DNA of 44,026 nt, counting the filler, from Jimgerdemannia flammicorona (taxonomy: Eukaryota), in the NCBI GenBank assembly GCA_003990765.1. It is 2 parts of 2 records of this genome, joined end to end, with 100 filler letters (N's around TTAATTAATTAA, not from the genome) between each part and the next. Parts side by side here need not be neighbours in the genome. Positions count along the whole stretch, not along the records: positions 22,071 to 44,026 come from RBNJ01001357.1; 1 more part is not named here. One strand, given 5' to 3'. The notes beneath the pieces are model-generated. The model was not told the origin of the DNA. It did not search any database and worked only from the letters and a program-made list of their open reading frames with translations. The position numbers were made by a program, and so were the translations under genes. Below are positions 144 through 44,026 of the stretch, in pieces. Numbering within the stretch: the stretch's first letter is position 1; the number at the start of each line of letters is the position of its first letter.

Positions 144-145
<2 letters not shown>

Positions 146-705: not shown

Positions 706-799
706 AGAGGAGTATTTACCAGCACCAAGATTACCGAACTTGAGCATAAGAAGGAGGAAAACACAAGCAAGCATATCTACACCATCAGAAATGAATTTC

Positions 800-2182: not shown

Positions 2183-2369
2183 ACTACCTCCAACTAACAA
2201 ATCAATCATGAATAAGGAGCTCTACTATGGAATTATCACATATGTACCTGGGACAGCGAAAGATGCCCCAATATCTAGAAGAATGGACACAAATGATTAT
2301 CAACAGAACATGGAAATAATTTGAAACTGATGGAGAAACACTGAAGAAAGGAAAACTACTAGTCATACC

Positions 2370-3405: not shown

Positions 3406-3856
3406 CAAAAGTACTGCAATGGCACTCAAGATCACTAGCACTACCCAAAGGACCATTGAGAGACAATGGCATACCACCGAGCCTCCGACCATAGAGGAGT
3501 CTTATGATAGTATCCAAAGTATTATGCAGACTCACCTCTCTCAGATCTCATACTTCAAGACCTATCAGTATCGAAACGAATTTCAAGAGTACTTCAAACT
3601 TGGCCAAGTACTCAATCAAGACCCAGAAATGACCAAAGAAAATTGGATCGCAGAATGCCAGCTCTCCTATTTCCAGATCACCATTGTTAAGAGAATCTAC
3701 AAGCTATTCTATGAGGATGAACCAGCACTAGCCCACCTGTGAGGAGTGACTCCCTCAGACTTTGACTGAGTTAGGCGATACCATTGGGAAACAGTAATGC
3801 AACAAATTGCACAATACAAGACCATACAGACCATTGAAGCCTGGGAGTTTGAATAG
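3395..3856 (+). pseudogene. Additional ORF of unknown function between integrase and PPT (about 153 codons)
   Basis: ATG at 3395 overlaps the pol stop. The frame continues through two TGA codons (3740, 3767) to TAG at 3854-3856, just before the PPT. Confidence 0.65.
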
Positions 3857-22070: not shown

Positions 22071-22160
22071 TGGCGGATGGTGGTAGGGAATAGGAGGGCT
22101 GCCACTAGGCCCATGGGGGTGTGACAGGGGGGGCATAGTGTTGACAGGGGGAGGGGTCAG

Positions 22161-23792
22161 GTGATGAGTCAGGTGATGGGTCAGGTGGCTGGCAGGGGAC
22201 AGGGGTCTGGTGGTGTGACGCGAGGGACTGGTTCTTCTGTGGCTGGGCAGGTGGCTGGGGAGAGGACTGCTGGTGGCACAGCTATACCTGGAAGGACAAC
22301 CACGGGTATGTCAGGGGCTAAGGGAAAGGTGACTCTGGCAGCTGGGACTGGCGAGTTGATAGTGAGGCCCTTCTTCCACAAATCGGTGTCGACATGGGCA
22401 ATCTCGGCAAACTTCCTGGGATTGGCGATGTCAGTGAGGGAGGTTCTGAGGATGGTGGGGGAGGAAGTGGCTGGAGCGGAGTCTCTGAAGTTCATCCCTT
22501 CAGCAGAGGCAGTGGAGATTGGCTTTGTGGAGGAGGATGCAATGGTGAAGGCATTGGAGAAAGGGATGACCGTCAAGGGTGTTAAGATTGGGATGGCAAG
22601 GTGTCTGAGGTGGGATCTGCATGTGGTTCGGCTGGTGGTGGAAGGATTGCCAACCCTGGGCAGGCAGGAGACCAAGGAGATGGTGGTTGAGGCGCTGGGT
22701 GGATATGGTGAGATGGTGGACTTCGGGTTCATGTTCTGGGAGGGTACCAAGTTGAGGAATGGCAACTGCGAGGTGATGCTGCGGCTGGAAGGCAAAGAGG
22801 CAACGGGGCTGGGCTGCGATTGGCCTGAAGGGATCAGGATTGGAGGGCAAGAGTGCAAGGTCTGGAGGAGGAAGGGAGCAGAACAGGAGGAGGAAGAGTT
22901 GGCAATTGCTCTGGAGGAGAGGGAGGCTGCCAAGGAACTGCGGAAGAGGAAGTGGGAGGAGTATGCCAAGGATTGGGTCTGGATTCAAGCAGATGGCAAG
23001 CGGAAGAGGTGGAGGAAAGGGAATTGGGAGCGTCTGCAGGTGGCCCTCCAAGGGGCAGCAGTGGAAGAGGAGGCGAGAGCAGAGGCCACCAAGAATCAGA
23101 TGGAAGGAGTGGAGGCAGCAGAGGTTTCCCTCTCCCAGCTGGGTGGTGTGGAGGACTCAGCACATGCGCCGGTGAGAGGAAAGTGGGCAGATAAGGAGGA
23201 GGTTGGTGAGGGAGGCTTTGAAGTGGATGACGAAGTGGTGCCGGAGACTCAGGTGGAGGACACTCATATGGCCGGGGCGGCGAATGTCCATTGGGAGTGC
23301 CCAGAAGCAGGTGAAGTAATTCATTTGGAGAAAGTTGTAGAGGAGGATGAGCTGGTGGATGTGGCTTCAGATGTGTCAGCTGATAGGGAGCAACTACAAG
23401 AGCTGAGCAGGACTCCCAGGCCCTCAACCCCTGGGCCCCTGATGATGACAGCAGAGAGCTGGTACCAGGCGGTGCTTGAGGAGCTGGCGGAGGAAGACAT
23501 CAAGGAAGTGGACATATTTCATGGATCTCAGGAGGCATGGGAAGGATTTCTCAATGTAGCAATGCAAGGGCCCAAGCTGGTGATGGCAATGGTGGCTGCC
23601 CTTCTGGATGATGAAGGATATGATGTGGATGAGAGCAGAATGGCTGACATCAGAAAGGTGGCGACTGAAAGAGTAGACCTTTTCTGCAGCAGTGCAAATG
23701 ATGACCAAATCTGGAGGGCGATTTGCGAGGACCAGCAAGAGATTGTCCGTGGAAGAGCTGAGAAGGTGGTGGCAGTTCCAGCTGAGCTTTAA
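22161..23792 (+). CDS. LINE ORF1 protein (RRM-like domains, acidic C-terminus); true start may lie upstream
   Basis: 543-codon open frame with VEIGFVEEDAMVKAL and LVVEGLP...ALGGYGEMVD...RNGNCEV patterns typical of L1/Tx1 ORF1. It ends 12 nt before ORF2. Confidence 0.8.
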   Translation: MMSQVMGQVAGRGQGSGGVTRGTGSSVAGQVAGERTAGGTAIPGRTTTGMSGAKGKVTLAAGTGELIVRPFFHKSVSTWAISANFLGLAMSVREVLRMVGEEVAGAESLKFIPSAEAVEIGFVEEDAMVKALEKGMTVKGVKIGMARCLRWDLHVVRLVVEGLPTLGRQETKEMVVEALGGYGEMVDFGFMFWEGTKLRNGNCEVMLRLEGKEATGLGCDWPEGIRIGGQECKVWRRKGAEQEEEELAIALEEREAAKELRKRKWEEYAKDWVWIQADGKRKRWRKGNWERLQVALQGAAVEEEARAEATKNQMEGVEAAEVSLSQLGGVEDSAHAPVRGKWADKEEVGEGGFEVDDEVVPETQVEDTHMAGAANVHWECPEAGEVIHLEKVVEEDELVDVASDVSADREQLQELSRTPRPSTPGPLMMTAESWYQAVLEELAEEDIKEVDIFHGSQEAWEGFLNVAMQGPKLVMAMVAALLDDEGYDVDESRMADIRKVATERVDLFCSSANDDQIWRAICEDQQEIVRGRAEKVVAVPAEL

Positions 23793-23804
23793 ACAAACTC
23801 TTTT

Positions 23805-26800
23805 ATGATGAAGAACAATCTACGTATTTTGTCGATCAATGTCAATGGATTGCGGGACAGTGTTAAATGACGGCGGCTGTTCAGATGGCTTAAAGTCAGG
23901 AGGTATGATGTGGTGTTTCTTCAGGATATTAGGGCTTATGGCGAGTCAGATTATGAGATGTAGAGTAAAGAATGATATGGTGGAGCTGGCTGGAATAAGC
24001 AGGTGGGCATCTTGGTTGGCATGGGCAAAGGCGAACTGGTGGAGGTTGAGATCTATGGAGACAGACTGATTTGGGGAAGGATTACAGGAGGGGCAGGTGA
24101 TGGGTTGATGGTTGGCTCGGTTTACCTCCCTGCAGTTGGCAGAGAGCGAAAGCAATGGGTTGAAGAATGGCAGGCATGGGATGGGCAGGAGGAGGTTGCT
24201 TTGGACATTCTGGGGGGGGACTTCAACATGGTGCGTGATTGAACACTAGATAGGTCTGATGGTGGGGCAGGAGTCGTGGTCTCTTCTGGACTTTCGCAAT
24301 GGCTTCAGGTGGAGCATGACATGGGTTTGGTGGATGGTGTTCGTCAATGTCAGGGGGACAAGCTAGGACCTTTCACTCAGTGGCATCCAGTTGGAACAGC
24401 ATTGGTTGGGACACGAATTGATTGGGTGCTAGTGGCAGAGTGTTGGGGCAATGTACTGGATACTGCCGAGGTGCGCTGGTGTCCATGGTCTGATCATTGG
24501 GGTGTGGAGGTTTGCGGTAGATTTCAAGCAACAGGCAGTGGTGGAGGGCGCTGGTGCCTCAATGTGGCCCTACTCAAGAGGAAGACGGTGAGAGATAATT
24601 TCGTGGCAGTGGTGAGACAGGAAGTTGTGCGATGGCGCAATGAAGGACAGTTAATAGCAGAATGGTGGGGTAAATTCAAACATCTGGCTGGGGCCTACTG
24701 GCAGGATGTCAGAGAAGTGGCTGGGAAGGAACAGAAGGACAAGGAGAGAAGAGTAGAGAAGGGGCTGCGATGGCGGTTGAAGCTTTTGGAAAAGGGGGAC
24801 CTGCCTGGAGAGGTGAGCCGCTGATTGGCATTGGAGGTGGCAGAGCTACAGGCGGATTTAAGGGTGTCTGAGACCAGGGTAGTAGATGGCCTGCTGGCCA
24901 GGCTGTGGTCCAGGCAGCTAGAGGAAGGAGAGAGGCCGACAAGATATCTGTCTGGAGTTTTGAAGGCTAGGAGGGTGCAACACAGTTGGGCCTCAGTTTT
25001 GCGAGAAGATGGAGTAAAGGTCTCAGGGATTGCAGACATGTTAGGGGAGGTATCTGGTCAATGGCAAGCTCTTTGGCAGGATAGCGGGGAGCACGCTGAG
25101 GATACAGGGTTTGGAGAGGAGGATAACAATATGGTGACCAATTGGCCAGTGACTGTGATACCTGGGATAGGAGAGGCGGTCATGGGAGAGGTATCTCTAG
25201 ATGAAGTATCGGAAGCGCTGAGGAAGACACAGACTGGTTCATCTCCAGGGGAGGATGGGCTGCCCTGGGAATTCTGGAAGGAGTTTAAGTCGGAGTTTGG
25301 TGACTGGTTGGTGGAGATGGCCAATGCAGTTCTGAAGGAGGGCAGCTGGATTGGAAATGGTTCCTTGGGGCTAGTCTCTCTTCTATATAAGGAAAAGGGT
25401 GATCGACGGGTGTGGCGTAACTGGCGACCTGTCATGCTGCTGAATGTAGATAGAAAGCTAGTTTCGAAGATTCTGGCAGAGAGGATGCAGCAGTATATTG
25501 GTGTGCTGGTTGGAGAAGAGCAGCGAGGCTTTGTCAAGGGGAGGCAGATTAGAGATAGTACTGCTTGGGTGCAGAATGTCTTAGAGGGCTGTAGGAGCTG
25601 GCAGGTAGATGGCCAGATGGTCTTTCTGGATCAAGAGAAGGCCTATGACAGAGTGCGGTGGAGTTATTTGGAGGTGGTTCTGAGGAGGGCAGGGTTTGGT
25701 GCAGTAGAGGCAGGGTGACTGATGGGCCTGGTAAGGAGATGCCGAGCAGCGGTAATGATGAATGGATGGTGTGGACCAGAGTTTGCCTTGGGGCGAGGGG
25801 TACCGCAAGGGGATCCCTTCTCTCCTCTTCTTTATGTACTTTCTCTGAAGCCTCTGCTGGTGTGGCTGAAGGGGCAGCTCTCTGGTCTGCAGATGGGAGA
25901 TGTGGTCTGGCGGTTGGGTGCCTTTGTGGATGACATGGTGGTAGGGCTGGGTAGCCAGGAGGATGCCGAAGTCCTACAAGAAGGGGTCGGGCAGTATGAG
26001 AGGCTGGCAGGAGCAAAGTTGAACTGGTGCAAGTGTGAGACTATGGAACTTGGTGCTGGCCTGGGGGGACATGGACAATTTGGACAATTGGTAGCTATAG
26101 GGAGTACTGTTCATTATTTGGGTATCTGGTTTTCGGTGTATGGGACAGTCCTACCAAGGGAGTGGTGGTGTGGATTGGTTCAGAAGCTGGAAGGTGTGCT
26201 GACAGGATGGTCAGGAAGGAGCTTTTCATTGCTTGGCAGGATTGTGGTCTTGAATGTATATTGGCTGCCCAAGCTGTGGTATCTGGGTTATTATCTAGAT
26301 TTTCCAGGGTGGGTGGTGCAGCAGCTGAAGAAGATTGTAGAAGAGTGGTTGTGGCAGGGGAGGCGCCCACAGATTGGGTGGGAGACTTTGGTGATGAGGG
26401 TTTCTGATGGAGGCCTGGGGTTGGTGGATTTCAAGCGGTGACTGAAGGTACTTTGGGGCTGGTGGGGGTGCCGACTGAGGGAACTAGGTGAGGAAGGTTG
26501 GGGCAGGCTGGCTATGGACAATTGGGAGGTCAGGTTCTGCCCTCGTGGTGAGGTTTGGAAGGATATGCGGGGTTTGCTGCAGGTTGGAAATGTGGGTAGG
26601 CTGCGGTTTAAGGGGTTCTGGTGGGGCATTGTAGAGGTCTGGCTGGCCATGGGGTTGACAGGCCCAGAGATAGAGGTGGATGAGAACCCTGAGCAGCGAT
26701 GGTGGTGGCTGGGAGACATTCACGTAGGTGGCCACAGTCTGAAGGAGTACTCTCTGATTGAGGCAATAGAGTGGATTAGGTCTGGCCCTCTGGAGAGATG

Positions 26801-27437
26801 GCCGCCTGGTTGGCAGAGAGCTGGTATTGGTGAAGACTGGGAGTGGGGTCAAATTTGGAATTGGGGCGACTCCATCCACAAGATGATACCACTCAAGTAT
26901 TGGGTAGTTTGGTGGCGATTCCTGAGACATAATGTGATGCTGAGCTACCGGACGGGCTGGATGGAGATTGATGGCTGCCAGGACTGTGAGTGGTGCAATG
27001 AGGTGGATGGCAGGGTTGTTCAGACACCTGAACATGTCCTGGGGGCTTGCCCAGGCGTAGAAGGGTTTTGGCAGAGCTTGGAGGGGTACTGGGACCCAGC
27101 GGGGCATAGGGCAGAGGATCCGACCAGTCTGGTGGTCAAGCGCTGGCTGATAGGGGAGATTGGTGACATATGGGGGGGCCTTGGTCGAGTATTGGGGGTC
27201 TGGGTCTTGATGGCAGTACATTGGTGGTGGATTTTCGAACAGGACCCATGGATGGGGATTGGAGAGATGGTAGAGTGGTGGAGGTGGCTTCTCTAGGAGG
27301 TGGTTCAGGGGTGGTGGTATCAGGGGAAGCAACTTTGACCTGGGGCACTAAAGAAGGTACAGGACATTGTCCAGCAGAGCCGAGGGTACCTAGTGCTAGA
27401 TGATCGTGGGGTGAGATGGAAGGAAGGAGTTGGCTGA
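23805..27437 (+). pseudogene. LINE ORF2 (APE endonuclease, RT, C-terminal CCHC), about 1210 codons in one frame with premature stops only
   Basis: SINVNGL, FLQD, GGDFN, RIDW, SDH; SPGEDG, NWRPVMLLNVD, DQEKAYD, GVPQGDPFSP, AFVDD, YLGI; CEWC...EHVLGAC. Confidence 0.95.
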
Positions 27438-27540
27438 AGTATGCTACTTATGTATATTATGTGGTGTTAGTAGTGTATTGGGGTTTGTGGTTATTGTATT
27501 AGATAGTTCGTAATAAAGGAGTCCATGTGACTATAAAAAA

Positions 27541-28293
27541 GGCAGTATGCCATCGGAACACACACCTCCCCAACTATCAATCCAACCTTCAGCGCTTCCT
27601 CCAAAGACTCAGCCTCCTCAAAGCCCACCTCCACTCCCTCCAGTTTCTTCAAAAACTTTACAGACGCTGCTCCAGCCACCTGCTTAGCAATCAGCCCCAG
27701 TACTATTTTTGCCATCACTGCTAGGCCCTGGAAGCACAGTGTCACCATGAATACCAAGATCGATTTCTTGAGTAACAGCGCCACCACCAGGCCTGTTACA
27801 CCATCTGCCAAATCTCCTTGTCTTCCAAGCCCCAGTCACTCAGCCTTGCCATTCATAGTCACATCTGGATTTTTTTCCAGATTAGCAGTCCCTTCTCCAT
27901 CAGCCATCACACCCCCCCCAGCCACTACACCCCCAGCCCCACCACCTCTCCTGCTAAGGGCTACTCCCCCCTGTACTGCCACCTTCTCTGTTTCCTTGCC
28001 CTTTCTCAGCCAACTCTCCAGCCCCAATGTCTACCTTCTCCCCTTCACTGTCTCCACAAAGCTTGCCCTCCCAGATCCCTGTCCTCCACTACTGCCTCCT
28101 CCCCTTCCACGTCCACCTGCCAGCAGCCCCCTCATACCTCCCCCCAGGCCAGGGCCTCTCCCCACCTGCTGCCAGTTGAACATGCTCAGGCCACCCTACC
28201 CAGTACATATCTCAGATTGCCTGTCAGTTGCCATGTTGCTAGTCTCTTTTCTCCAAAAACAATGTTGTAGTTGCTTTACAAAGGTTGTGTAAC
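27541..28293 (-). mobile_element. 5' fragment (ORF1 start) of a related LINE, interrupted by the + strand LINE
   Basis: QVAGAASVKFL..VEVGFEE..LEEALKVGL..VPMAYCL aligns by eye with ORF1 at 22161. Begins GTTACAC on the minus strand. Confidence 0.8.
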
Positions 28294-29899
28294 CTGAGTG
28301 ATACCAGAGAGAGATGCTCAGACTTCATTCCACCCCTTCTCTGGTACATCCACCAGCTCATCCTCACTAACTGCTACCACCTGTCTCTCTTTTGCCAAAT
28401 CTGGGACTCCAAAGTAGACCTGCTTGGCACCACACATCTGCACATCCTCTGCTGCCCTGCTCTTTACAGCAGGACCCTACCTGATCAGAGGGAGAGTATC
28501 CTCCACAACAGGTTCCCAGACTTCAAACATATCATCCTCAAATGGGTCCACCCATAGCATCTTCCCAGCCTCCTCCAGAACCCTCTCTACCACTTCTCCT
28601 CTCTTACTGGCCCAGACACTCACCTCTGTACCCCCAGACTTCTCAATACTACCATCATTCTTCTTCACTCTCTCTTCCATACTCACCAACAGCTCTCTCT
28701 GTCTCTTATACCCCTGAGCCCTTTCCCACTGCCTCCTGTTGGTATAGATATGCTTTCCTTCCATAATCTCCAAATGTGTCAACTCTACATATCTCTTCCA
28801 GGCCTTCACCCTCCACTTGACAGCTCCACTCATCTCTTCCAGAGCCTCTAGCAGCTCCTCCTCCTCCTCATCACTCTCTTTCACCCTTGATACCTGACAG
28901 ATGAAAGCCCTCTATAGCATCACTGATGGCCAGTCGCTTGTCTTTCCAGTGGCCTCCTTCCCTGCCAGCCAAATCCTGATGTCAACATCTCCAGTCCTGA
29001 TAGTGGTCTCCTTCTATATCTGGAAATCAATATCCACCACATCACCATACTCTGCCATCACCTCCTCAACCCTCCTCCTTGTCTCAACTGCCATTACTGT
29101 AGACACCCCCTTTACCAGCAGCTGAACCACTCTGGGTCCCATCTAAGACAGTGTACCATAGGAACTACCACTTCTCTGACCACTACTCCAGTCTTCAGAG
29201 CCTCATCCAGTGGGCCTCCTCAAAGCCCACCTCAACCCCCTCCAGACCCTTCAGGAACTTCACCAAAGTGGCCCCAGCCACCTGCTTTGAGATAAGCCCC
29301 AGGACCATCCTCACCATTACTGCCAAGCCCTAGAAGTATAAGGTAGCTACAAACTCCAAGATAGACTTCTTGAGCAATGGTGCCACTACCAGCTCTGTCA
29401 CACCATCTGCCAGATCCCCCTTCTGCATAGGAACCTCTGCCCCACCTTGCCATTAGCCATCACATCTCTTTTTTTTTCCTGATTCTTTGTCACACTTCCA
29501 TCAGCAGTCCCACCTCCAGCCACAGCACCTCCAGCCCCTACACTCATATCCCTCATCTGGAAACTGCTCCCCCTACTGATGCTAGTCTTGTTCTTCCCCT
29601 CAGCAGCACTAGCCCTAGCTCCAACTGGCCATCCACTCCCCTTCACCTTGTCCACAAAGCTAGGGAGGCCAGGCCTTCCCCTACTTCCACCTAATATCAG
29701 TCCTTTACCAGATTCCTCTCCACCCTTCAACCCTCCAAAGGCTCCCATCCCCAGTCCAAAACCTCTCCCCACATTCTGCCAGCTGAATGCCCCAGGTCCA
29801 CCTGACCTAGTATATCTATCAGAACTCTTGCTCGATGACATTTTTATAGTACCTTTTCTCCAAGTTGTATTGAAAAATGTTGCTTGAAGTTGGTGTAAC
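28294..29899 (-). mobile_element. Second 5' LINE fragment (decayed ORF1)
   Basis: Homologous to 27541-28293 and to ORF1 (EEEEELLEALEE...RVKAWKRY). Also begins GTTACAC. Confidence 0.8.
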
Positions 29900-31969
29900 A
29901 TGAATTGTACAGTAGAAAGGTCCCATGCAATGTGTTACCAAATATATTTATAAAAACAATATACAAATTATGGGTCCCATCAACCATCAACAACTTACCT
30001 CAAAGAGAACTAGCCAAACCTCTGTAAAAAGCCTCATTAATCAATACCAACTTTCTATTGCACCCTTCTATCTCCCAATATCAACTGGCCTTGACTCTCT
30101 AAAATAATATTCTATATCTTCTTTACTGTCCCCAGCTCCCACTACCTCTCCTGGGACTTCTACTCTTGTACTATCTCTCTTATAAACCAGTACTATTACT
30201 TTACCAATTCTCCAATCCCCATCCAATATTCACTCTTGAAGACCCATCACCAGCCATCAGGACCCACACTCCTATAATCTATCCAACATTTCCCCAGATA
30301 TCACCAATATCTCCCACCAACCTCCTCTGAATCACTATACTGACAGAGTCCTCAGACCTTCTACCCCCAGTGCTCCAGTACTCCTCCAAGGTCTGCTAAT
30401 AATCTTCTACCCCAGGACAGGTCACCAAGATATGCTCCAGAGTCTAAACTACCTCCCCAGAGGATTCAGTATACTATTTGCAATCCTAACATCCATCTAT
30501 CTCCATCCAACCTGTCTGATAGTTTAACATCACATTTCTCCTCAAGAACTACCACTACACTATCTAATACCTAGGGGGTACCACCTGATATAACTTAGCT
30601 GTCTAACTCCAGACCCAACTCTACTCCCACATCTCTCCAATTCCAGCCATCTACTAACCAACTAGCCACCTCTCCAGTAGTTCTGTCCTAGCCCATTCTA
30701 TAGCCTTGACTAATGAATATTCCTTCAATATCCTACTACCTATCCTGAGCAACTCCAATCTCTACTACTATTACTCAGGGTCAACAATCTCCTCTATCTC
30801 AGACTCTGACAATCTTATGGCTAGCCAAGTCTCCACAATACTCTAATAGAATCCTTTATACCACAACCTACCAACTATTCCAACCCAGAGCAACCCTCTC
30901 ATATCCTTCCACTCCTTGCCCCTAGGGCAGAATCTAACCTCCCAATTGTCTATTACCAATCTGCCCTAGTCTCCCTCTCCTATCTCTACCAGATGGTATC
31001 TCCACCAGCTACTGAGGGTCTTCAGTTGCTGCTGAAAGTCCACCAGCCCCAGGCCCCTATCAGTAATTGATAGCACCAATGACTTCTATCTAATCTGCAG
31101 TCACCTCTCTCATCAAAGCCACTCTTTAACAGTCTTCTTCAGCTGCCACACTACCCACCCAGAAAAGTCCAAGTGATAATCCAGATACTACAACTTTGGA
31201 AGCCAGTATACATTCAAAACCACCACTCTCTCCACCAGGGAGAAGTTATGTTCAGACCAATCTGTCAAAATGTCTTCCTATTTCTTCACTATCCCACACC
31301 ACTACTCTCTTGATAGAACTGTCTCAAACACTATAAACTGGATACCCAAATATCTAACAGTCTCTCCAGTAGATACAATCTGTCCAAACCCACCCTCAGC
31401 CCCTATCCCAGCACCAAGCTCCAAAGTCTCACACTTTTTCCAATTCAACTTTGCTCCCATTAGCCCCTTATACTATTCTATTCCTTCTTGCAAAATTTCT
31501 ACATCCTCAATACTATCTAACTCCATTACTATATCATCTGCAAAGGCCCCTAGCTTCCACACTACCTCTCCCATCCAAAGTCCAGTCAGCTGTCCCCTCA
31601 GCCAGGCCAACACTAGCTCCAAGGAGAGAATATAAAGGAGAGAGGAGAGGGGGTCCCCCTGCAGAACTTCTCTATTCAAGGAAAACTCTGAACCAAACCA
31701 GCTATTCACCAGAACTGCCTCTCTACAGCTATACATCAGTTCCATAAGTCTTTCAACCTCTTCAATACCAAATCCCATCTTGTACAATACAGCCTTCAGA
31801 TAATATCATCTCATCCTATTATATATCTTTTCTTAATCTAAGAAGATCATCCTCCCATCTACTCTGCAACTTCTACAGCCCTCCAAAACATTCTACACCC
31901 AAGCTGTGCTGTCCCTGATCTGTCATCCCTTCACAAAGCTCCACTACTCCTTCTCTACCAGTCTGTCAA
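29900..31969 (-). mobile_element. Decayed 3' half of LINE ORF2 (RT to C-terminus)
   Basis: FVKG.QIRDSTAWV, LQGDPLSSLLY, GAFADD, LNVYWLPKL. Colinear with 25500-27437. Confidence 0.9.
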
Positions 31970-32499
31970 CTTGGCAGGCTGGTAGGAGAGGAGTAGTGGA
32001 GGAGTGGAGGAAGAGGGCCCAGTGGGAGCCAGGGGAGTGAACCCAGAGTCAGTGTCAAAGTGAACAAAAGACATGTGAAAGAGTGTGTATAAGGGGAACA
32101 AACAAAGAACATAACCAAAAATATATCAGTTGTTTATTGCCATGTAAAAATGCAGTCCTTATATATAAAATATGATATCCCAAAAGGGAGGATACACTAC
32201 AACTTGGGGTGAACTGAATTAGGAACCACATGATTGCCAGAGATAAGTGGAGATAAAGGGAGAGTCAATCTCAGTTACAGAAAAAAAATCACCAACAAAT
32301 ACAAACAAAACAAATTCAAATTGAAATTAAAAAACATCTGCAGACCCCAGAGGGGTGAGCATGAGTGAGGGGTGAGGCTGAAATGGAGTGAGCCACAGCA
32401 AGCCTGAGTGAAGTGAGGGGCCAAAGGCAGCAGAGGGGAGCAGAGTAAGGCTGAGACCCTGGAGTGAGTACAAGATCCTGGAGGGGGCAAGAATGTTTT

Positions 32500-34552
32500 T
32501 TAATCCTCTCCAGCAGAGCTGGAGGCATCAGAAGGTAATGAAAACACAAAACAAGAGTGATGGATTAAAGAAGAAACAAAAGGAAGATGTGAATGAGCAA
32601 TTAGAGGGTGTTGAGAAAGAGATGAAAGTCTAAGGTATAAAAGAGAAGAGTACAGGACAGTGTCAGGGCATTGAGTGACCCAGCGAGCATGATCAAATGG
32701 TATGACAAGAATTGGCAGTGGGAATGAAGAGGGGGTATGGAGAGGTAAGGGGAGAGAGAGGAAAGGAAAGGGGGGTAAAGGGGAGAGAGGAGGGAAGAGT
32801 GAACAACAGACCATTCAACAGAAGCAAGCAGATCATGAATGATAGAAATAGGGTAGACATAACAATGGATCATGAAGTTGCCAAGAACCCAAACAGCAGA
32901 CATCCAGTGAGAATGATGGGAGCAGCAAAGTGCAAGATGACAAATCTCACTACAAATGCATTCAAGAAGAGTGCAATAAGGATGATCGGAAAGGAAGTCA
33001 GAGAACTATTGTGAATGGGGAAATTGAGAATAGACAACAGTCCAGAAGGGGGAAAGAGAAATAGAAAGGTCTAAAAAGAGAATACTAGTTGTACAACAAA
33101 TCCAAGTAATAGAATGATAGGGAGAGTAGACACCATAGAACACACCAGGAATATCAACACCAGCAATAGCAAGAATAATGAAGTCATCAATGTATTGGCA
33201 AAAGAAGATATCCCCAGCCTAGAACATGATGGAAAGAGATGAAGAAGGATTACATATTGCACAAAGTTCATGGGTCAGGCTGACAAGGTTGGCAAGAGTG
33301 GGGGCACAATTCATTCCCATAACAATACCAGAAGTCTGGTGAAAAGAGCTGAGGGCTGACTTGAAGTAGTTGGAGCCATAAACAAGGAGCATAAGCTCAA
33401 CAATGGAAGCCAACAAAACTAGAGAATCTAAAGAAAAAACAATGGAACCCAGGAAGTGAAGACAATTATCAATCTCATCAAAATAAATAGCAGTGTAGAA
33501 GGAGGAGAAGTCACTAGAGGCCAAATGGGAAAATGGTGAACAGGCACAATGGTGGAGCAGAGAAGGGTGAGCTCCTGAGTATTATGAAGAATTGTGTACT
33601 CAGGCCCAAGATGGTGTTGTAGAAGAGCCATCTAAGAGAGGAAGAAGCAGGATAACCACTTCGAAATCTCAGTAGTAGGAGAGCAAAAAGCAGCCATAAT
33701 GGGATGCCAAGCCAGAGTAGGCTTGTGGACTTTAGGAAGAGCATAGAAAACCAGGAGATGAATGTCCAGCAAGAACAAAGAGTCCTGGAAGAAGTTAAAA
33801 ATGGGTTTCACAAAAGGAGAATCTGAAAGTAATCTGGTATAAGCTAGGGAAACCCAAAGGAGAGTGAGAACCTCATCCAATCCAAGAGCACTAGGCTCAT
33901 AAGCTGTGGCTCAAAGGAGGGCAGAAAGGCCATCAAGGTAGAGCAACTTAGGAATAAGTACAAAGCCTTGATTCTTATCAGTAACTGTGAGCAAATACAA
34001 AGGCAATTGCTTGACTGATTTAAGTGCAGTATGTATGGCATGGTCTGAAACCAAGCAAGAGTGAGCATGTCCAGGAATGGACAGTGAGCAAGCCATATCA
34101 AGAATTACACAGTGTGAAGAGACATTGGGAGGGGGGACCCAATTGCTAGGAATATAATAGTGAGAGAGTATCTCACCATGATCCTCAAAGAAGATGGCAA
34201 GGTCAAGAGCACAATGAAAATGTATAAGACGAGCTGGATCAGTGAAGGAGAATTGTGAGAGAGTTACAGGAAAAACAAAGTGAGGATCCAAGGATAAGGC
34301 AAAGACTTGAAGGGGAGAAAGAGAGCAGTTAGCCGAAGAGAAAGGAGGAGACAAAAGCATTCCAAGAGAAGAATAAACCTGAAAATTCGGGATAAGCAAC
34401 TGAGAAAGATGAAGGGGGGACAGTATGAGGAACCACTCAGGGTACACCAGAAGTGATGATGGAATCTAAGAAGAGACAGAGACACCAGGGAAGAACCATA
34501 CCAGGGGGAAGTTTAAGAGTGGGAGGCCTTCCCCTTCCCTCTGACTTTTTTT
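32500..34552 (-). pseudogene. Penelope-type reverse transcriptase, copy 1
   Basis: LSLDPHF, SNWVPP, TDKNQG, FYALPKVHK..WHPI..SPTTEISKWL, DFSSFYT, NYF..QTSGIVMG..APTLANL, YIDD, thumb region, LVIPF. No GIY-YIG motif seen. Confidence 0.88.
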
Positions 34553-35726
34553 GAAGGTGGCAAACCCAATGAGCAGGAGCACACTCCATCAGAGTGCCAG
34601 ACCTTGCAGCCACAGGCTTTTGTGCAGCCTTTACATTCAGAGACATGGGTAGAGGAGACAGAGGAGGAGCCAGTGGAAGAGACAGAGGGGGAGCGAGCAG
34701 CTGAAGGGACAGCAGTACAAGGAACACTACCATGGGAGCAGACAGACTAGTCAGGTACCAGTAGGTATGGTGGAGGCAACCAGAGCAAACAGCATATGGC
34801 CAGGCCCTGACAGGGTGAGAACTAAGTTGACAGCCATACTTGGGGGCAGGGGGAACAGAGGAGGAGGCCTTGGCAGGGAAGGGAGACTGAGAAGAGGCTG
34901 ATGAAGCCTGGTTGGGCTTGGTGGGGGTCTTGGTGGGGGCTTTGGCAGTGGCAGCAGTGAAGGAATGGACCTTGGTATAGGTGGTGGCATGAGCCTTAGC
35001 ATGGATGGCCTTGGAGACTGAAACCTCAGGGGAGGCAGATAGGGGAGCAGTGGTGGTAGCATGAGCAGTAGTGGCAGCATGTGATTTTTCCTGCTCATGA
35101 AGACAAGTGACAAAAGAGGTGCTAGTAAGGAGGAAGTGACAAACAGTATCAATGTCAGTAATAGCAGAGAGAACATCTTAGATAGCAAAACCACAGAAAG
35201 GGACAGGATCTATGAGGCGGAAAGTGACAAAGACTATGAAAGTGGCACAGGCATGGTAGAAGGAGGCAGAAGTGGTAGCAGCAGAAGTAGCAGCAGCATC
35301 AGTAGCAGCAAGCTTGGTGGCAGTAGTAGTAGTACAAACCTCTTCAGAGAGGGCTTGGTGGTAGGCCTCAGGAAGAATGGAGTAGTGGATGGCAGGCAGA
35401 GTGATAATGTTGACATTATGATAGAGACAAACCTTCTTGGTGGAGAGGGCAAGAACTGACTGGAACTGAGAGAGGAGCAGATGACCAGAAGGATGAAGGT
35501 TTAGAGGGAGAGACAGAATGGTGGATGAGACATAGGTCTCAAATGAGACAGTGGTGGGGATGAAAGCAGAGAGAGGAGGAGGAAGAACCTCATCCATAAT
35601 CTCATTGATAGAGACAGAGACCCCAAGGACAGACAGTATAGCAGTGGAGGAGGAGGGCCCAGTGAGAGCCAGGGGAGTGAACCCAGAGCCAGTATCAAAG
35701 CAAACAGAAGATATATAGAAGAGCAT
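34513..35726 (-). pseudogene. PLE ORF1, copy 1 (Ala/Thr/Ser-rich, Cys/His clusters)
   Basis: Long, largely open frame upstream of RT, conserved in the three copies. Confidence 0.65.
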
Positions 35727-36144
35727 GTATAAGAGGGATGAACAAAGAATATAACCAAAAATGCATCAGCCATTTATTGCTATGTAAAAATGCAGTCCTT
35801 ATATGTATACAAAATATGATGTCCAAAAAGGGAGGATGTGCCACAACTTGGGGCGAACTGAATTAGAAACCACATGACCACTAGAGATAAGCAGAGATAA
35901 ATGGTGAGCCAATTCCAGTTGCAGGATAAAAATTACCAATAAACACAAACAAAATAAATCCAAATTGAGATTAAAAACCATCTGCAGACCTCAGAGGGGT
36001 GAGTATAAGTGAGGGGTGAGGCTGAAACAGAGTGAGCTGCAGTGAGCCCAAGTAAAGCAAGAGGCTGAAGACAGCAGAGGGGAGCAGAGTAAGGCTGAGA
36101 CCCCAGAGTGAGCATGAGACCCCAGAGGGGGTAAGAATGTTTTT

Positions 36145-38194
36145 TAATCCTCTCCAGCAGAGCCAGAGGAATCAGAAGGTGATGAAAATGCAAAACAAGA
36201 GCAATGGATTAAAGAAGAAATAGAAGGAAGATGCAAATGAGAATTAGAGGGTATTAAGAAAGAGACGAAAGTCCATGGTATAAAAGAGAAGAGCACAGGA
36301 CAGTGTCAGAGTGTTGAGCAACCCAGTGAGTATGATCAAATAGTACAACAAGAATTGGGGGTGGGAATGAAGAGAGGGTATGGAGAGAGTAAGAGAGGAG
36401 AGAGGAAAGAGAAGGGGGGTAAAGGGGAGAGAGGAGAGAAGAGTGAACAACAGACCATTCAACAGAAGTAAGCAGATCACAAATGATAGAAATAGGGTAG
36501 GCATAATGATGGACCACAAAGTTGCCAAGAACCTGAACAGCAGACACCCAGTCAGAATGATGGGAGCAGCAAAGTACAAGATGACAAACCTCACTATGAA
36601 TGCATTTGAGAAGAGTGCGATGAGGATGATTGGAAAGGAAGTCAGAGAACTGTTGTGAATAGAGAAACTGAGAATAGACAACAGTCCAGAAGGGGGAAAG
36701 AGAAATAAAAAGGTCCAAAAAGAGAATACTGGTTGTATCACAAACCCAAGTAATGGAATGATGGGAAGTGTAGACACTATGGAATATACCAGGAATATCA
36801 ACACTAGCAACAGTGAGAATAATAAAGCCATCAATGTATCAGTGAAAGAAGATATCTCCAGCCCAGAACATAATGGAAAGAGATGAAAAAGGATCATATA
36901 TTGCATGAAGTTCATGGGTCAGGCTGATAAGGTTGGCAAGAGTGGGGGCACAATTCATTCCCATGGCAATATCAGAAGTCTGATAAAAAGAGCCAAGGGC
37001 TGACTTGAAGTAGTTGGAGCCACAGATGAGGAGTGTAAGCTTAACAATGGAAGCCAACGAAACTGGAGAATCTAAAGCAAAAACAATGGAACCCAGGAAG
37101 CAAAGACAATCATTGATCTCATCAAAATGAATAGTAGTATAGAATGAGGAGAAGTCACCAGAGGCCAAATGGGAAAAATGGTGAATAGGTACAATGGTGG
37201 AGCAGAGAAGAGCGAGCTTCGGAGTACCATAAAGAATTGTATACTCAGGCCCAAGATGGTGTTGTAGAAGAGCCATCCAAGAGAGGAAGAAGCAGGATAA
37301 CTACTTCGAAATCTCAGTGGTAGGAGAGCAAAAAGTAGCTGTAATGGGACACAAAGCCAGAGTAGGCTTGTAGACTTTAGAAAGAGCATAGAAAACTGGA
37401 AGATGAATGTCTGATAAGGATAAAGAGTTCTGGAAGAAGTTAAAAATGGGTTTGCAAAAGGAGAATCTGAAAGCAACCTGGTGTGAGCCAGGGAAATCTG
37501 AAGGAGAGTGAGAACCTCATCCCATCCAAAAGCACTGCTTGTAAGCTATGGCTCAAAGGAGGGCAAAAAGGCCATTAAGGTAAAGTGACTTAGGAATAAG
37601 TGCAAAGTCTTGATTCTTATCAGTGACTGTGAGCAAATGCAAAGGCAATTGCTTGACCAATTTAAGTACAGTATGCATGGCACAGTCTGAAACCAAGCAA
37701 GAGCAAGTGTATCCAGGAACAGACAGCAAGCAAGCCATGTTAAGGAATATGTAGTGTGAAGAGATATTGGGAGAGGGGACTCACTTGCTAGGAATATAAT
37801 AGCAAGAGAGCATCTCACCATGATCCTCAAAGAAGATAGCAAGGTTAAGAGTATGACAAAAACATGTAAGATGAGCTGGATTAGTGAAGGAGAATTGTGA
37901 GAGAGTTATAGAAAAAACAAAGTGAGGACCCAAGGATAAGGCAAAGACTTGTAGGGGAGAAAGAGAGCAGTCAGCCAAAGAGAAAGGAGGAGACAAAATC
38001 ATTCCAAGAGAAGAATAAACCTGAAAATTTGGGATAAGCAACTGGGAAAGATAAAGAGGAGACAGTATGAGGAATTACTCAGGATATATCCAAAGTGACA
38101 ATAGAATCCAAGAAGGGATGGGGACACTGGGGGAGAACTATGCCAGGGGGAAGTTTAAGAGCAAGAGGCCTTCTCCTTCCCTCTGACTTTTTTT
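36145..38194 (-). pseudogene. Penelope-type reverse transcriptase, copy 2
   Basis: TDKNQ, GDFSSFYTTI, IAMGMNCAPTLANL, (F)LDL, SNHP...CCSH...YAYP. Confidence 0.88.
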
Positions 38195-39361
38195 GAAGAT
38201 AGTGAACCTGATGAGTGGGAGCACACCCCATCAGAGTGCCAGACCTTGTGGCCACAGGCTTTTATGCAGCCCTTACATTCAGGGGCACAGATAGAGGAGG
38301 CAGAGGAGGAGCAAGCAGCTAAAGAGATAGCAGCATGAGGAATACTACCATAGGGGCAGATGGACTTAGTCAGGTGCCAGTAGATATGGTGGAGGTGACT
38401 GGAGCAGACAATACATGGCCAGGCCCTGACAGGGTGAGAACCAAGTTGGCAGCCATGCTTGGGGGCAGGGGTAATAGAGGAAGAGGCCTTGGTGAGAGAG
38501 GGGGACTGAGAAGAGGCTGACAAAGCCTGGTTGGGCTTGGTGGGGGTCTTGGCAGGGGCCTTGGTGATGGCAGCAGTGAAGGAATGGACCTTGGCATGGG
38601 TGGCAGCATGAGCCTTGGTATGGATGGCCTCAGAGACTGAAACCTCAGGGGAGGCAGATAGGGGAGCAGTGGTGACAGCATGAGCAGCAGCAGTAGTATG
38701 TGACATTTCCTACTTGTGAAGGAGTGACAAAAGAGGTACCAGCAAGGAGGAAGCAACAAATGGCATTGATGTCAGTAGCAGTAGAGGGAATGTCTTGGAT
38801 GGCAAAGCCACAGAAAGGGGCAGCATCCTTGAGGCGGGAAGAGGTGAAGGCCACAAAAGCAGTACAGGTATGGTGGAAGGAGGTGGAGGTGGTGGCAGTG
38901 GAAGTAGCAGCAGCATCAGTGGCAGCAAGCTTGGCAGCAGCAGTAGTGGCATGAACCTCTTTGAAGAGGGCTTAGCAGTGGGTCTCAGGGAGAATAGAGT
39001 AGCAGATGGTGGACAGAGTGACAATGTTGATGTCATGGCAGAGATGAGCCTCCTTGGCAGAGAGGGCAAGAACCAACTGGAACTGAGAGAGGAGCAGATG
39101 ACCAGAAGGATGAAGGTCTAGAGGGAGGGACAGAATGGCAGATAAGACATAAGTCTTGAATGAGATAGTGGCAGGGATGAAAGTGGGGGGAGGAGGAGGA
39201 GGAAGAACCTCATCCATAACCTTATTAATAGAGACAGAGGCTCCAAGGGTAGATAGTACAGTAGTGGAGGAGGAGGGCCCAGCGGGAGCCAGGGGAGTGA
39301 ACCCAGAGCCAGTGTCAAAGCAAATAGAAGATATGTGAAAGAGCATGTAGAAGGGAGACAA
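38155..39361 (-). pseudogene. PLE ORF1, copy 2
   Basis: CIVCSSHLHHIYWH and CKGCIKACGHKVWHSDGVC; ends SSKKVRGKEKASCS*. Confidence 0.65.
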
Positions 39362-39994
39362 ACAAAGAATATAACTGAAAATGCATCAGCTATTTATTAC
39401 TATGTAAAAATGTGGTCCTTATATACAAAATACAATATCCCAAAAGGGAGGACATACCACAACTCAGGGTGAACCAAATTAGGAACCACATGACCACCAG
39501 AGATAAGCAGAGATAAAGGGAGAGCCAATCTCAGTTGCAGGATAAAAATCACAAACAAATACAAATAAAACAAATCTAAATCAAGGTTGAAAACATCTGC
39601 AGACCTCAGAGGGGTGAGCATGAGTGAGGGATGAGGCTGAAATGGAGTGAGCCACAGCAAGTCCAAGTGAAGCAAGGGGCTAAAGGCAGTGGAGGGGAGC
39701 AGAGTAAGGTCAAGACCCCCAGAGCAAGTGCAAGATATTAGAGGGGGTAAGGATGTTTTTTAATCTCAATTTGGATTTGTTTTGTTTGTATTTGTTTGTG
39801 ATTTTTATCCTGCAACTAGGATTGGCTCCCCCTTTATCTCTGCTTATCTCCAGTAGTCATGTGGTTCCTAATTTGGTTTGCCCTGAGTTGTGGTGCATCC
39901 TCCCTTTTGGGACATTATATTTTATATATAAGGACCACATTTTTACATGGCAATAAATGGCTGATGCATTTTCAGTTATGTTCTTTGTTCATCC

Positions 39995-41260
39995 CCCTTA
40001 TATATACTCTTCTATATATCTTCCATTTGCTTTGACACTGGCTCTGGGTTTTCTCTCCTGACTCCTGCTGGGCCCTCCTCCTCTATGGCTCCCACTGAAC
40101 CCTCCTCCTCTACTGCTGTACCATCTGCCCTCAGGGCCTCTATCTCTGTCGATGAGGTTATGGATGAGGTTATGGATGAGGTTCTTTCTCCTCCTCCTCT
40201 CCCCACTTTTGTCCCTACCACTGTCTTATTCAAGACCTATGTCTCATCCACTATTCTGTTCCTTCCTCTGGACCTTCATCCTTTTGGTTATCTGCTCCTC
40301 TCTCAGTTCTGGTCAATTCTTGCCCTCTTCACCAAGGAGGCTTGTCTCTACCATGACATTGACATCATCACTCTGCCCACTATCCACTACTCCATTCTCC
40401 CTGAGGCCTGCTGCCAAGCCCTCTCCGAAGAGGTTTACACTGCCACTGCTGCTGCCAAGCTTGCTGCCACTAATGCTGCTACTACTTCTGCTGCCACCAC
40501 CTCCACCTCCTTCAACCATACCTGTACTGCTTTTGTGACCTTTGCCTCTTCCTATCTCACAAACACTGTCCCTTTCTGTGGCTTTGCTGTCCAAGACATT
40601 CTCTCCACCACTGCTGACATCGATGCCATTCATCACTTCCTCCTTGCCAGTACCTCTTTTGCCACTCATCTTCATGAGTAGGAAATGTCACATACTGCCA
40701 CTGCTGCTTGTGCCACCACCACTGCTCCCCTACCTGCCTCCCCTGAGGTTTTGGTCTCTGAGGCCATCCATGCTGAGGCTCATGCTATCACCTATACCGA
40801 GGTCTGTTCCTTCATCACTGCTGCCACCAAGGCTCCTGCCAAGACCCCCACCAAGTCCAATCAGGCTTCATCGGCCTCTTCTCAGTCCCCCTTCTCTGCC
40901 AAGGCCTCCTCCTCTGTTCCCCCTGCCCCCAAGCATGACTGCCAACTTGGTTCTTGCCTCATCAGAGCCTGGCCATGTGCTGTCTGCTCCAGTCACCTCC
41001 ACCATGCCTACTGGTACCTGGCTAAGTCTGTCTGCCCCCATGGTGGTGTTTCTCACACTGCTGCCCCTTCAGCTGCTCGCTCCCCCTCTGCCTCCTCCAT
41101 CAGCTCCTCCTTCGCCTCCTCTACCCATGCCTCTGAATGTAATGGCTGCACAAAAGTCTGTGGCTGCAAGGTCTGATACTCTGATGGTGTGTACTTCTGC
41201 TTGTTGGGTTCGCTATCTTCAAAAAAAGTCAGAGAGAAGGAGAAGGCCTCCTGCTCTTAA
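39995..41260 (+). pseudogene. PLE ORF1, inverted copy (start approximate)
   Basis: ORFs 40085..40681 and 40685..41176 share one frame that ends at TAA 41258-41260. Confidence 0.65.
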
Positions 41261-42437
41261 ACTTCCCTCTGGCATAGTTCTCCCCTGATATCCCTGTCCC
41301 TTCTTGGATTCTATTGTCACTTCTGGTGTGCTCTGAGTGGTTTCTCATGCTGTCCCCCCTTCACCTTTCTCAGTTGCTTATCCTGAATTTTTGTGTTTAT
41401 TCTTCTCTTGAAATGCTTTTGTCTCCTTCTTTCTCTTCAGCTGACAGCCTCCTTTCTCCCCTTCAAGTCTTTGCTTTATCCTTGGGTCCTTGCTTTGTTT
41501 TTCCTATGACTCTCTCACAATTCTCCTTTACTGATCTGGCTTGTCTACACATTTTCATCATGCTCTTGACCTTGCCATCTTCTTTGAGGATTGTGGTAAG
41601 ATGCTCTCTCACTATTATATTCCTAGCAATTGGGTCCCCCCTCCCAATGTCTCTTCACACTACATATTTCTTAACATGGCTTGCTTGCTGTCCATTCCTA
41701 GATACACTCACTCTTGCTTGGTTTCAGACTGTGCCATGTGTACTATGCTTAAATCAGTCAAGAAATTGCCTTTGCATTTACTCACAGTCACTGACAAGAA
41801 TCAAGGCTTTGTACTTATTCCTAAGTTACTCTACCTTAATGGCCTTTCTGCCCTTCTTCGAGCTGTGGCTTACAAGCCGAGTGCTCTTGGATTGGATGAG
41901 ATTCTCACTCTCCTTTGGGTTTCCCTGGCTCACACCAGGTCGCTTTTGGATTCTCCTTTTGTAAACCCCATTTTTAACTTCTTCCAGGACTCTTTGTCCT
42001 TGCCAGAAATTCATCTTCTAGTTTTCTATGCTCTTTCAAAAGTCCTCAAGCCTACTCTGGCTTGGTATCCCATTACAGCTGCTTTTTGCTCTCCTACCAC
42101 TGAGATTTCAAAATAATTATCCTGCTTCTTCCTCTCTTAGATGGCTCTTCTACAACACCATCTTGGGCCTGAGTACACAATTCTTCATAACACTCAGGAG
42201 CTTGCCCTTCTCTACTCCACCATTGTACCTGTTCACCATTTTTCCCATTTGGCCTCTGGTGACTTCTCCTCCTTCTACACTACTATTCATTTTGATGAGA
42301 TCAATAATTGTCTTTGCTTTCTGGGTTCCATTATTTTCCCTTTGGATTCCCCAGTTTTGTTGGCTTTTATTGTTGAGCTTACACTCCTCATCTGTGGCTC
42401 CAACTACTTTGAGTCAGCCCTTGGCTCTTTTCACCAG
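41221..42437 (+). pseudogene. Penelope-type RT, inverted copy, interrupted by a LINE
   Basis: LSLGPCF, SNWVPP, TDKNQG, FYALSKVLKP, GDFSSFYTTI, NYFES..SFHQ, then a switch to LINE sequence. Confidence 0.85.
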
Positions 42438-44026
42438 TCAGTGGCGGATGTTGAGGCGCTTACAAATATAGTGGAATGGTATGAGACACACTCTGGGGTG
42501 AAACTCAACTGGCATAAGTGTGAGACATTGATGTTGGGGAATGGGTTGGTAGGAGGGGATGTCATTGGAACAATTGTCCCCACAGGAGAGGTGGTGTAGT
42601 ATCTCAGTATCTTTCTTTCTGTTTATAGATCAGTCTTGCCACAGGTGTGGTGGGAGAGGAAGGTGGTCATTTGGGGGGAGGCTCTGAGAGGTTGGGGGGG
42701 TCGTCACATCTCCCTGGCAGGGCAGGTATCAATCCTGAATGTGTACTGGTTCCCCAAGCTGTGGTATGTGGTATATCCCTTGGACTTTCCAGCCTGAGTG
42801 GTGAAAAGGCTGATGAAGATGGCTCAGGATTGGATTTGGATAGGTAGAAGGTCACAGATTAGTTGGGATACCCTTGTGGAGCCAGTGGTTAGGGGAGGCC
42901 TTGGTCTTGTGGATTTCCCTAGGAGGCTACACTGTCTGTGAGCTTGGTGGTTGGAAAGGGCAGTTGAACTACAAGGAGGAGGTTGGGTTCCGCTGATGCA
43001 GAAGGTGTGGGAAATGAGATTCTCACCCCAGGGGTCCTCCGGGGACTTGCTCTCTCTGGTGGGGCTGAATGGAAGCCAATGGCTATGTATAAGGGCTTCT
43101 GGTGGGGGGTGGTGGATGGAGCACACTGGATAGGTCTGCGCTGGTGAGGTAATGAGGGGGAGGAGGTGTGGGGCCCTGCTATGTGGCAATGGGACAGACT
43201 GTTACTAGGGGGGGTTCTACTTGTAGAGTTTGATATTGGTGATAGAGTAGAGTGTCAGCGGAGACTTGGCCAGAATCTTTGGCTGAGCAGTTGGCAGATA
43301 GTGGGGATTGGTGAGGAGTGGGACTGGACAGGAATCTGGGCCTGGAGTGCTGTGGTGCAGAGGTGGCTTCCTCCCAAGTTCTGGGTAGTATGGTGGTGAA
43401 TGCTGTGAAGGAATGTTATGTTGAATTTCTGTGCTGGGCATCTGGTGAATGGTGGCCAATTGGATTGTGAGGAGTGTTATAATATAGGGCAAGCTGGGGA
43501 TTTTGTACAGATGCCAGAACATTGGCTGGGAGAGTGTGAGGTATTGGGGGACTTTTGGGTAGCTATAGGGAACAGGCTGGGTGTAGAAAGGAGGCCGGAT
43601 GGTGAGTGAGATCGCTGGGAGGATTTGAGATCTAGACTAGTGGGAGGTATTGGCAATAGGTTGCTCACTGTAGGGTGGGTAATTGCAGTGTGGGTAGGGT
43701 TGGCTGGACATTGGCTATTTGTTTTTGAGGAAGGGTGACAGACAGAGATGTAGGAGAAGTTGGTAAGGTGGGAAGAGTTGATGGGTGATCTTCTTACTGA
43801 GTGGTGGGTGGGTTGGGGTCCTCAGGGTGGGCAATGCTGCCATCTGGTAGAAGGGATCTGTAGCCAGAGTGGTGGGAGGGTAGAGATGGTGGTTGACAAA
43901 GTAGTCTACTATCGAGAGGGTATGGGGAGGGGCCCTAGGGAGATAGGGTAGGGGTGGGGCACTGTGTAATATATAGAGGATAGATGGGTATTAATAAAGA
44001 ATGGAGTCCAAGTGACTATAAAAAAA
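42438..44026 (+). mobile_element. 5'-truncated L1/Tx1-like LINE ending in poly(A)
   Basis: GVKLNWHKCE, LNVYWFPKLW, GGLGLVDF, CEEC...EHWLGEC. Ends AATAAAGAATGGAGTCCAAGTGACTAT(A)n. Confidence 0.9.

What the first reader, a model, noticed from the sequence alone, without database searches (positions are those of the whole stretch)
32326..32504. IR-closed module of GCGAAGC-type DNA mini-hairpins on the cDNA strand
Seen: each unit has a 12-13 bp inverted repeat (ATTAAAAAACAT...ATGTTTTTTAAT; also 35969-36149 and 39585-39765) enclosing about 155 nt. Comparing copies, TG/CA alternations restore CCCGAGCGAAGCGAGGG, GCCGAAGGC, CCGAAACGG and GAGC repeats. Known: d(GCGAAGC) with its GAA loop and tandem G-A pairs is exceptionally stable in single-stranded DNA. 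Inference: a branched ssDNA structure, reminiscent of parvoviral terminal hairpins, acting on the first-strand cDNA. An adjacent hairpin (CTCCAGCAGAGCTGGAG, 32508-32524) may mark the 5' boundary of the template.
Basis: partly seen in the sequence, partly recalled or inferred. Interest (0 to 1): 0.72.

Follow-up and report, generated by a model that had tools for sequence, protein, structure and literature searches.

The report
Joint hairpin of Penelope-like retroelement
The flagged 181-base stretch is a long imperfect DNA hairpin in a jumping gene that lacks its own DNA-cutting enzyme, and it most likely lets two DNA copies, started from the two ends of a chromosome break, be joined head to head.

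Summary
Real, but a single rod-like hairpin rather than a branched cassette. It opens the pseudo-LTR of an endonuclease-less Penelope-like element (PLE). With CpGs restored, it has a 15-bp closing stem, nearly purine-only internal loops and a central GC-GAA-GC apex on the cDNA strand. A second family in this genome (RT ~40% identical) has the same design and apex. Insertions are head-to-head, with one module at the axis: 181 such joints against 0 flips on the RT side. Seven chimeric centres cross over inside the rod's inner stems (3 unselected, all in register). The arms are not mirror copies: template jumps, poly(A)-derived ends and allele differences occur on both. Eight usable empty sites show -1 to +77 bp lost and no real duplication. 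Best reading (0.62): both ends of a DNA break prime cDNA, and the rod joins the two strands. Pure fold-back self-priming is less likely (0.2). The layout is known from endonuclease-bearing animal PLEs, but was said to be absent from fungal endonuclease-less ones. This scan had already noted the module at the junction on other contigs of this genome; the mechanistic tests are new here.

The parts
32000..32324 (-). F: outer part of the pseudo-LTR (5' UTR plus first ~24 codons of ORF1); the element ends sharply at ~32000-32008
32325..32339 (+). Arm A of the 15-bp closing stem
32340..32490 (+). M: 151-nt quasi-palindrome; folds on the + (cDNA) strand as a rod with purine-rich G/A internal loops
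32403..32419 (+). Apical GC-GAA-GC mini-hairpin with flanking GA/GA loop (GAA at 32410-32412); same apex in family B
32491..32505 (+). Arm A'; holds the RT ORF stop codon (32500-32502, - strand)
32508..32524 (-). Small hairpin within the last codons of ORF2; no sign that it is a template boundary
32500..34590 (-). ORF2 (approximate; broken here, 696 codons open in L044): telomerase-like PLE reverse transcriptase, no GIY-YIG
34500..35714 (-). ORF1 (approximate; 405 aa in intact copies): alanine-rich helical protein with two Cys/His motifs; overlaps ORF2 at a slippery A-run
35640..39259 (-). Second tandem unit, with its module at 35969-36149
39260..39584 (-). Inner F of the left arm
39585..39765 (+). 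Single-copy central module: axis of the head-to-head insertion
39752..42437 (+). Inverted right arm (F, ORF1, part of RT), starting inside arm A'; outer end lost
31938..32002 (.). ~30-bp inverted duplication of flanking DNA at the left insertion junction

Best explanation
The module is the programmed joint of an endonuclease-less PLE that inserts at two-ended DNA breaks. (1, inferred) The RT particle engages both 3' ends of a break. (2, shown as junction signatures) Each end primes first-strand cDNA at the element's fixed start: ~72 nt into ORF1 in this family, the poly(A) tail in family B. The RT may jump back to that start. (3, inferred from joints) A cDNA that reaches the end of the module pairs its 3' end in the rod register, with its own 5' half or with the partner cDNA, and is extended. 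(4, inferred) The complementary F strands from the two sides anneal, and host repair fills in. The result (shown) is a head-to-head insertion with one module at the axis, a few target bases lost and no duplication. G.A-rich loops and GNA triloops probably make the rod stable as single-stranded cDNA but weaker in the RNA and in duplex DNA (inference).
For: Joints genome-wide: F-A-M 466, F-A-flipped M 181, body-A-M 0. 39 of 40 arrays fetched on that joint mapped with a central module. Chimeric centres switch in stem 1 (4, selected by pattern), stem 2 (2) or stem 3 (1). The 3 unselected ones keep the rod register, which holds only 8 of 70 inner microhomologies. Family B's imperfect arms show the joint at two depths, 19 and 7 of 26 centres, against 33 of 33 unchanged outer modules; both types occur within 3 lineages. 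Jumps from variable donors to the fixed start occur on the arm opposite the central module in L067, L072, L078, C1924 and C20 and are not mirrored. In L053 and L078 that arm holds sequence the other arm lacks. Family B has poly(T) at both outer ends in L143, L171, L172 and L161+L162, absent at inner F, with different poly(A) junctions at the two ends in 2 of these 4. In L069 and L054 the opposite arm carries alleles the co-oriented inner F lacks. Eight insertions with usable empty sites lose -1 to +77 bp, and no duplication exceeds 2 bp in 36 of 36. PMC11167929: a PLE protein extends both target strands from a fixed internal start.
Against: The arms almost always come from one lineage (transversions 0.003 against 0.013 between arrays; family B 0.002 against 0.039), as copying would predict; two-ended priming needs RNAs from one source locus. 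The short arm matches the inner F and not the outer F in 3 arrays. In family A the centre is oriented with the long arm in 31 of 32 long/short arrays, which favours a fold-back step. DNA nearest-neighbour parameters give the inner rod no excess stability. Purine bias is element-wide (0.68 in both module and body). Poly(T) tracts mutate fast, and family-B short arms could be later deletions. L153 lacks the apex. Five of 13 empty-site matches gave large gaps and were set aside. No biochemistry was done.
Confidence: 0.62

Rival explanations
1. Pure fold-back self-priming (first reader; self-priming model of PMC3846280). One cDNA folds at the module and copies itself, and the inverted arm is second strand.
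For: Head-to-head geometry, rod-register joints, orientation bias 31 of 32, same-lineage arms, short arm equal to inner F in 3 arrays.
Against: It must stop at the cDNA start site of the inner F although template continues (30 of 31 short arms end at F1-9). It cannot give unmirrored cDNA-type jumps, a longer opposite arm (L053, L078, C20), or poly(T) ends opposite a non-poly(T) template.
Confidence: 0.2
2. The module is a promoter or CpG island whose inverted repeat is only a passive recombination or template-switch hot spot. Palindromes are inherited from a master copy or formed after insertion.
For: Inner length varies (duplications or deletions in L068, L082, L146, L149, L153, L156; whole outer module missing in L058 and L075). 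cGNAg words are partly repeats. PLE promoters lie in the pseudo-LTR (PMC2377424).
Against: Inversion between the arms should flip M on both sides, yet the counts are 181 against 0. Joint types differ within lineages, so centres are remade. Two families with otherwise dissimilar modules share stem design and central apex.
Confidence: 0.11
3. The module acts as RNA: a ribozyme or a structure on the sense transcript that sets RNA ends or pauses the RT.
For: The closing stem also forms in RNA (z -4.9). Four jumps leave from inside arm A, as if the RT paused there. Other PLEs carry hammerheads in the pseudo-LTR.
Against: No Rfam match near its gathering score, no hammerhead core on either strand, inner sense-strand fold at chance in family A (z -0.9), and 0 cGNAg on the sense strand in both families.
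Confidence: 0.07

Closest known systems
EN+ Penelope elements with inverted pseudo-LTR and junction palindrome (Adineta vaga Pen2a/Pen2/Pen3a, PMC3846280; D. virilis, PMC2377424; PMC8557442)
   Same: Two direct pseudo-LTRs plus an adjacent inverted one overlapping by 15 bp; pseudo-LTR includes the ORF start; palindrome at the inverted junction.
   Different: No GIY-YIG domain, no target duplication, no hammerhead, two ORFs. The palindrome is 181-200 nt with G.A loops instead of 18-38 bp. The evidence here points to two-ended priming rather than the self-priming proposed there. That paper states that fungal and protist EN- elements do not share this organisation.
EN- PLEs Coprina/Athena (PMC8557442, PMC6431247, PMC13159263)
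   Same: Telomerase-like RT without endonuclease; extra helical ORF1; priming on existing DNA ends.
   Different: Dispersed over hundreds of internal sites; no TTAGGG arrays in 92 loci; no hammerhead; palindromic insertion.
LINE-1 twin priming and insertion with target deletion (bioRxiv 10.1101/2024.12.14.628481)
   Same: Both DNA ends primed on RNA, giving 5'-inverted insertions; small deletions and inverted duplications at the site.
   Different: In L1 this is a side product joined at chance microhomology (recalled). Here it is the main product, with a fixed built-in joint.
d(GCGNAGC) mini-hairpins (PMC13037366); parvoviral terminal hairpins (recalled)
   Same: GCGAAGC apex and cGNAg words on a single-stranded DNA intermediate; hairpin at a replication turn-around.
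   Different: Eukaryotic retroelement cDNA; no Rep protein; flips occur only against F, never against the RT side.

Membership tests
Penelope-like elements | Telomerase-related RT with DKN/DKG, KxHKP..RPI, GIAMG and YIDD motifs | tested here: met
   top Foldseek hit is telomerase; motif names partly recalled
Penelope-like elements | Pseudo-LTRs; tandem and inverted insertions | tested here: met
EN+ Penelope/Poseidon/Neptune/Naiad | GIY-YIG endonuclease | tested here: not met
   None in ORF1 or ORF2 by Pfam; ORF2 ends after the thumb region; ORF1 model is helical but low confidence, pLDDT 48
EN+ Penelope/Poseidon/Neptune/Naiad | Target-site duplication | tested here: not met
   At most 2 bp in 36 of 36; -1 to +77 bp lost in 8 usable empty sites
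Coprina/Athena | No endonuclease | tested here: met
Coprina/Athena | Telomeric location and telomeric-repeat stretches | tested here: not met
   0 of 92 loci with 3 or more TTAGGG; host telomere unit assumed, not known
Coprina/Athena | Hammerhead ribozyme | tested here: not met
Coprina/Athena | RT falls in the Coprina clade | not tested
   No named reference set in hand; nearest named relatives are fungal RTs at about 29-35% identity
Parvovirus-type terminal hairpin | Second strand is a mirror copy primed by the hairpin | tested here: not met
   Unmirrored arms in L053, L067, L072, L078, C20, C1924, L171, L172
Parvovirus-type terminal hairpin | Rep nicking and flip/flop resolution | tested here: inconclusive
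   No Rep ORF; flips only against F (181 against 0)
GNA mini-hairpin DNA | cGNAg loops on one strand above chance | tested here: met
   10 of 22 and 11 of 27 CpGs against 36 of 264 and 30 of 309; shuffles p 0.0015 and <0.0005; words partly repeated
GNA mini-hairpin DNA | Physical stability through sheared G.A pairs | not testable with these tools
   Needs melting, gel or NMR; PMC13037366 says standard models do not account for it
MITE | Independent copies with own duplication, either orientation | tested here: not met
   Never flipped against the body; arm holds the ORF2 stop

The most novel reading that the evidence does not exclude
A lineage of endonuclease-less PLEs spread genome-wide by patching double-strand breaks from both ends, using a dedicated single-stranded DNA device (a G.A-laddered rod capped by GCGAAGC) to join two first-strand cDNAs. 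The same two-ended joining would then explain the inverted pseudo-LTRs of all PLEs.
Probability: 0.4. Interest if true: 0.8.

Novelty: new variant of a known kind. Interest (0 to 1): 0.6.

Why it matters
How PLEs make their tandem and inverted ends and complete integration is called undefined in PMC8557442 and unvalidated in PMC11167929. These two families give hundreds of fossil insertions in which self-priming and two-ended priming make different predictions, and they give a short defined sequence to mutate. They also show an endonuclease-less, telomerase-related RT spreading far from telomeres, and a GCGAAGC-type DNA motif conserved in a eukaryotic retroelement.

Tried and rejected
Rfam: only generic miRNA-like hairpin hits far below gathering scores. 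Hammerhead core: none. MITE and simple inversion of the module: rejected. Assembly or amplification chimera: rejected, because the arms differ by ~16% through independent decay. Within-family covariation: could not be tested, since variation is almost all CpG decay. Metagenome relatives: 21 loci at 23-41% identity; 14 were scanned and showed no comparable module, several carry CCCTAA tracts. Other GAGCGAAGCGAG hits: 5 of 9 non-family contexts were read (0.9 kb each) and are unrelated; the other 4 were not read. Own-genome protein searches were saturated by family A. Sequencing runs: none was listed. The ORF1 fold was too poor to search, and the atlas gave no named look-alike. Host lineage was not established. 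Dimer against monomer folding energies do not separate inter- from intramolecular pairing.

Full report
Observation. The inverted repeat and the restored motifs are there. Unit 1 is exact, unit 2 has one mismatch and unit 3 has a decayed left arm. Repeats in this genome are CpG-depleted. In 32 copies, TG/CA alternation restores 22 CpGs and a perfect 15-bp stem closing 151 nt. The restored 181-mer folds as one rod on the + strand. Its 12 internal loops are almost purine-only and its apex is GAA. z is -7.2 (RNA) and -3.8 (DNA) on +, and -4.9 and -3.0 on -. The inner part alone is at chance under DNA parameters. Those models do not account for mini-hairpin stability according to PMC13037366 (passages), so the DNA folding is neither support nor refutation.

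Context. The module lies between the RT stop and the 5' UTR of a 3.65-kb element read on the - strand. Open copies give ORF1 of 405 aa and ORF2 of 696 codons. ORF2 has PLE motifs, models as a telomerase-like RT and has no endonuclease domain. The host was not identified; named RT relatives are mostly fungal. The + strand is therefore the first-strand cDNA. The element ends sharply ~72 nt into ORF1, much as a lizard PLE starts reverse transcription 111-118 nt into its ORF (PMC11167929, parts 1-2 of 4 read).

Architecture. Writing F for the pseudo-LTR flank, M for the module and B for the body, exact patterns give F-A-M 466, F-A-flipped M 181 and body-A-M 0. I fetched 40 arrays from the first 100 listed joints in contig order. 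I skipped 11 already seen (mostly chosen for two long arms) and 12 others, most near contig ends. Of the 40, 39 mapped: 31 F-M-B-F-M-F' with the centre oriented with the long arm, 6 with two long arms, 1 flipped (L053) and 1 short/short. Thirty of the 31 short arms end at F1-9. Full palindromes are thus under-counted in that sample; 12 more arrays and the window are mapped.

Second family. A codon pattern found family B, with RT mostly 36-42% identical. It has the same layout and a 200-nt module with a related T/A-run closing stem and the same GAGC-GAA-GCGAG apex at the centre (position 98 of 200, against 86 of 181). cGNAg is enriched on the cDNA strand in both families and absent from the sense strand, although some words are direct repeats and purine bias is element-wide. 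The same design with different sequence is the only covariation available (n = 2). Against a strict inner structure: inner duplications and deletions are tolerated, and L153 lacks the apex in both modules.

Where the joint is made. In family B the arms differ by a few bases. Of 26 centres, 19 keep arm A' and 7 carry a copy of arm A, while 33 of 33 outer modules are unchanged; both types occur inside 3 lineages. In family A, three facing F-A-M pairs among the first 100 rows are chimeric modules that switch in stems 2, 2 and 3. Four of the five hits switch in stem 1; the fifth is a 3-nt loop inversion in an outer module. The three unselected cases keep the rod register, which holds 8 of 70 inner microhomologies. 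So the rod, not only the closing stem, is the pairing surface.

One primer or two. Jumps run from varied donors to the fixed start, mostly after an A, like the outer ends (45 of 66 end in A). They occur on the arm opposite the centre in five arrays and are not mirrored. Family B ends begin with poly(T). Both ends have it in L143, L171, L172 and L161+L162, the inner F never does, and two of these four have different poly(A) junctions at the two ends; L145 has it at one end only. L069 and L054 have arm-specific alleles, while L060, L073 and L075 have short arm equal to inner F. Arms are nearly always of one lineage, so the RNAs must come from one locus. Of 36 insertions, 13 had paired flank matches. 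Eight lose -1 to +77 bp; five with gaps over 300 bp were set aside, two of them because an internal junction was mis-called as flank. I conclude that both ends of a break prime cDNA and that the rod joins them, directly or after a short fold-back. The chemistry is inferred.

Comparison. PMC3846280 (passages) describes the same direct-direct-inverted layout with 18-38-bp junction palindromes in endonuclease-bearing elements. It proposes self-priming, notes that EN- elements may prime at breaks, and says fungal and protist EN- elements lack this organisation. PMC8557442 (passages and section 15) attributes the inverted structure to the endonuclease and lists some non-telomeric EN- exceptions. 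PMC13159263, PMC6431247 and PMC2377424 (passages) describe telomeric Coprina, terminons and the Penelope promoter. The L1 preprint (passages) covers twin priming and inverted duplications at break ends. A retrozyme preprint had nothing relevant (term search). Searches found no report of such a module or of two-ended joining in PLEs. The library lacks most subscription papers, and I did not read the 2007 and 2017 EN- papers or any supplement; the PLE-X sequences of PMC8557442 could bear on novelty.

Verdict. A real, conserved cis element and a new variant of a known PLE feature. Earlier scan notes on this genome had placed it at the junction. I confirm that, disagree that the GNA words are mere chance, and add tests that favour two-ended priming. 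Interest 0.6.

Noticed in passing
window 34540-34556 (- strand); L151, L152, L143 at ORF1 end: Both families have an A-AAA-AAN slippery heptamer where ORF1 overlaps ORF2, suggesting a programmed -1 frameshift (motif rule recalled).
   Followed up: partly
window 31938-32002: ~30-bp inverted duplication of flanking LINE DNA at the insertion end, as expected from a break end that folded back before priming.
   Followed up: partly
L058 1416-1450; L075 outer module: The whole outer module is deleted at a 4-nt microhomology in two arrays with different haplotypes.
   Followed up: partly
L146, L150, L153, L169, L171 outer ends: Family B poly(T) ends contain reiterated T-run-plus-A units, like slippage at initiation.
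   Followed up: no
window 22125-27296, 27539-31955, 42440-44026; motif at 76-116, 27500-27540, 43985-44025: L1-like LINEs (RT, zf-RVT) sharing a short 3' motif before an A-run.
   Followed up: no
window 79-3742: Decayed LTR-type element pieces (RT, RNase H) with a dUTPase ORF beside them.
   Followed up: no
window 1-21970 against the rest: The window joins two contigs of G000 (C1356 and C1357).
   Followed up: yes
L121, L122, L132 (4.77 kb unit); L134, L135 (4.19 kb unit): Metagenome PLE contigs have identical ends (tandem or circular units); the first three carry degenerate CCCTAA tracts.
   Followed up: no
L161 left end: A family B element is inserted in family A flank sequence, but its other end does not continue that sequence.
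   Followed up: no
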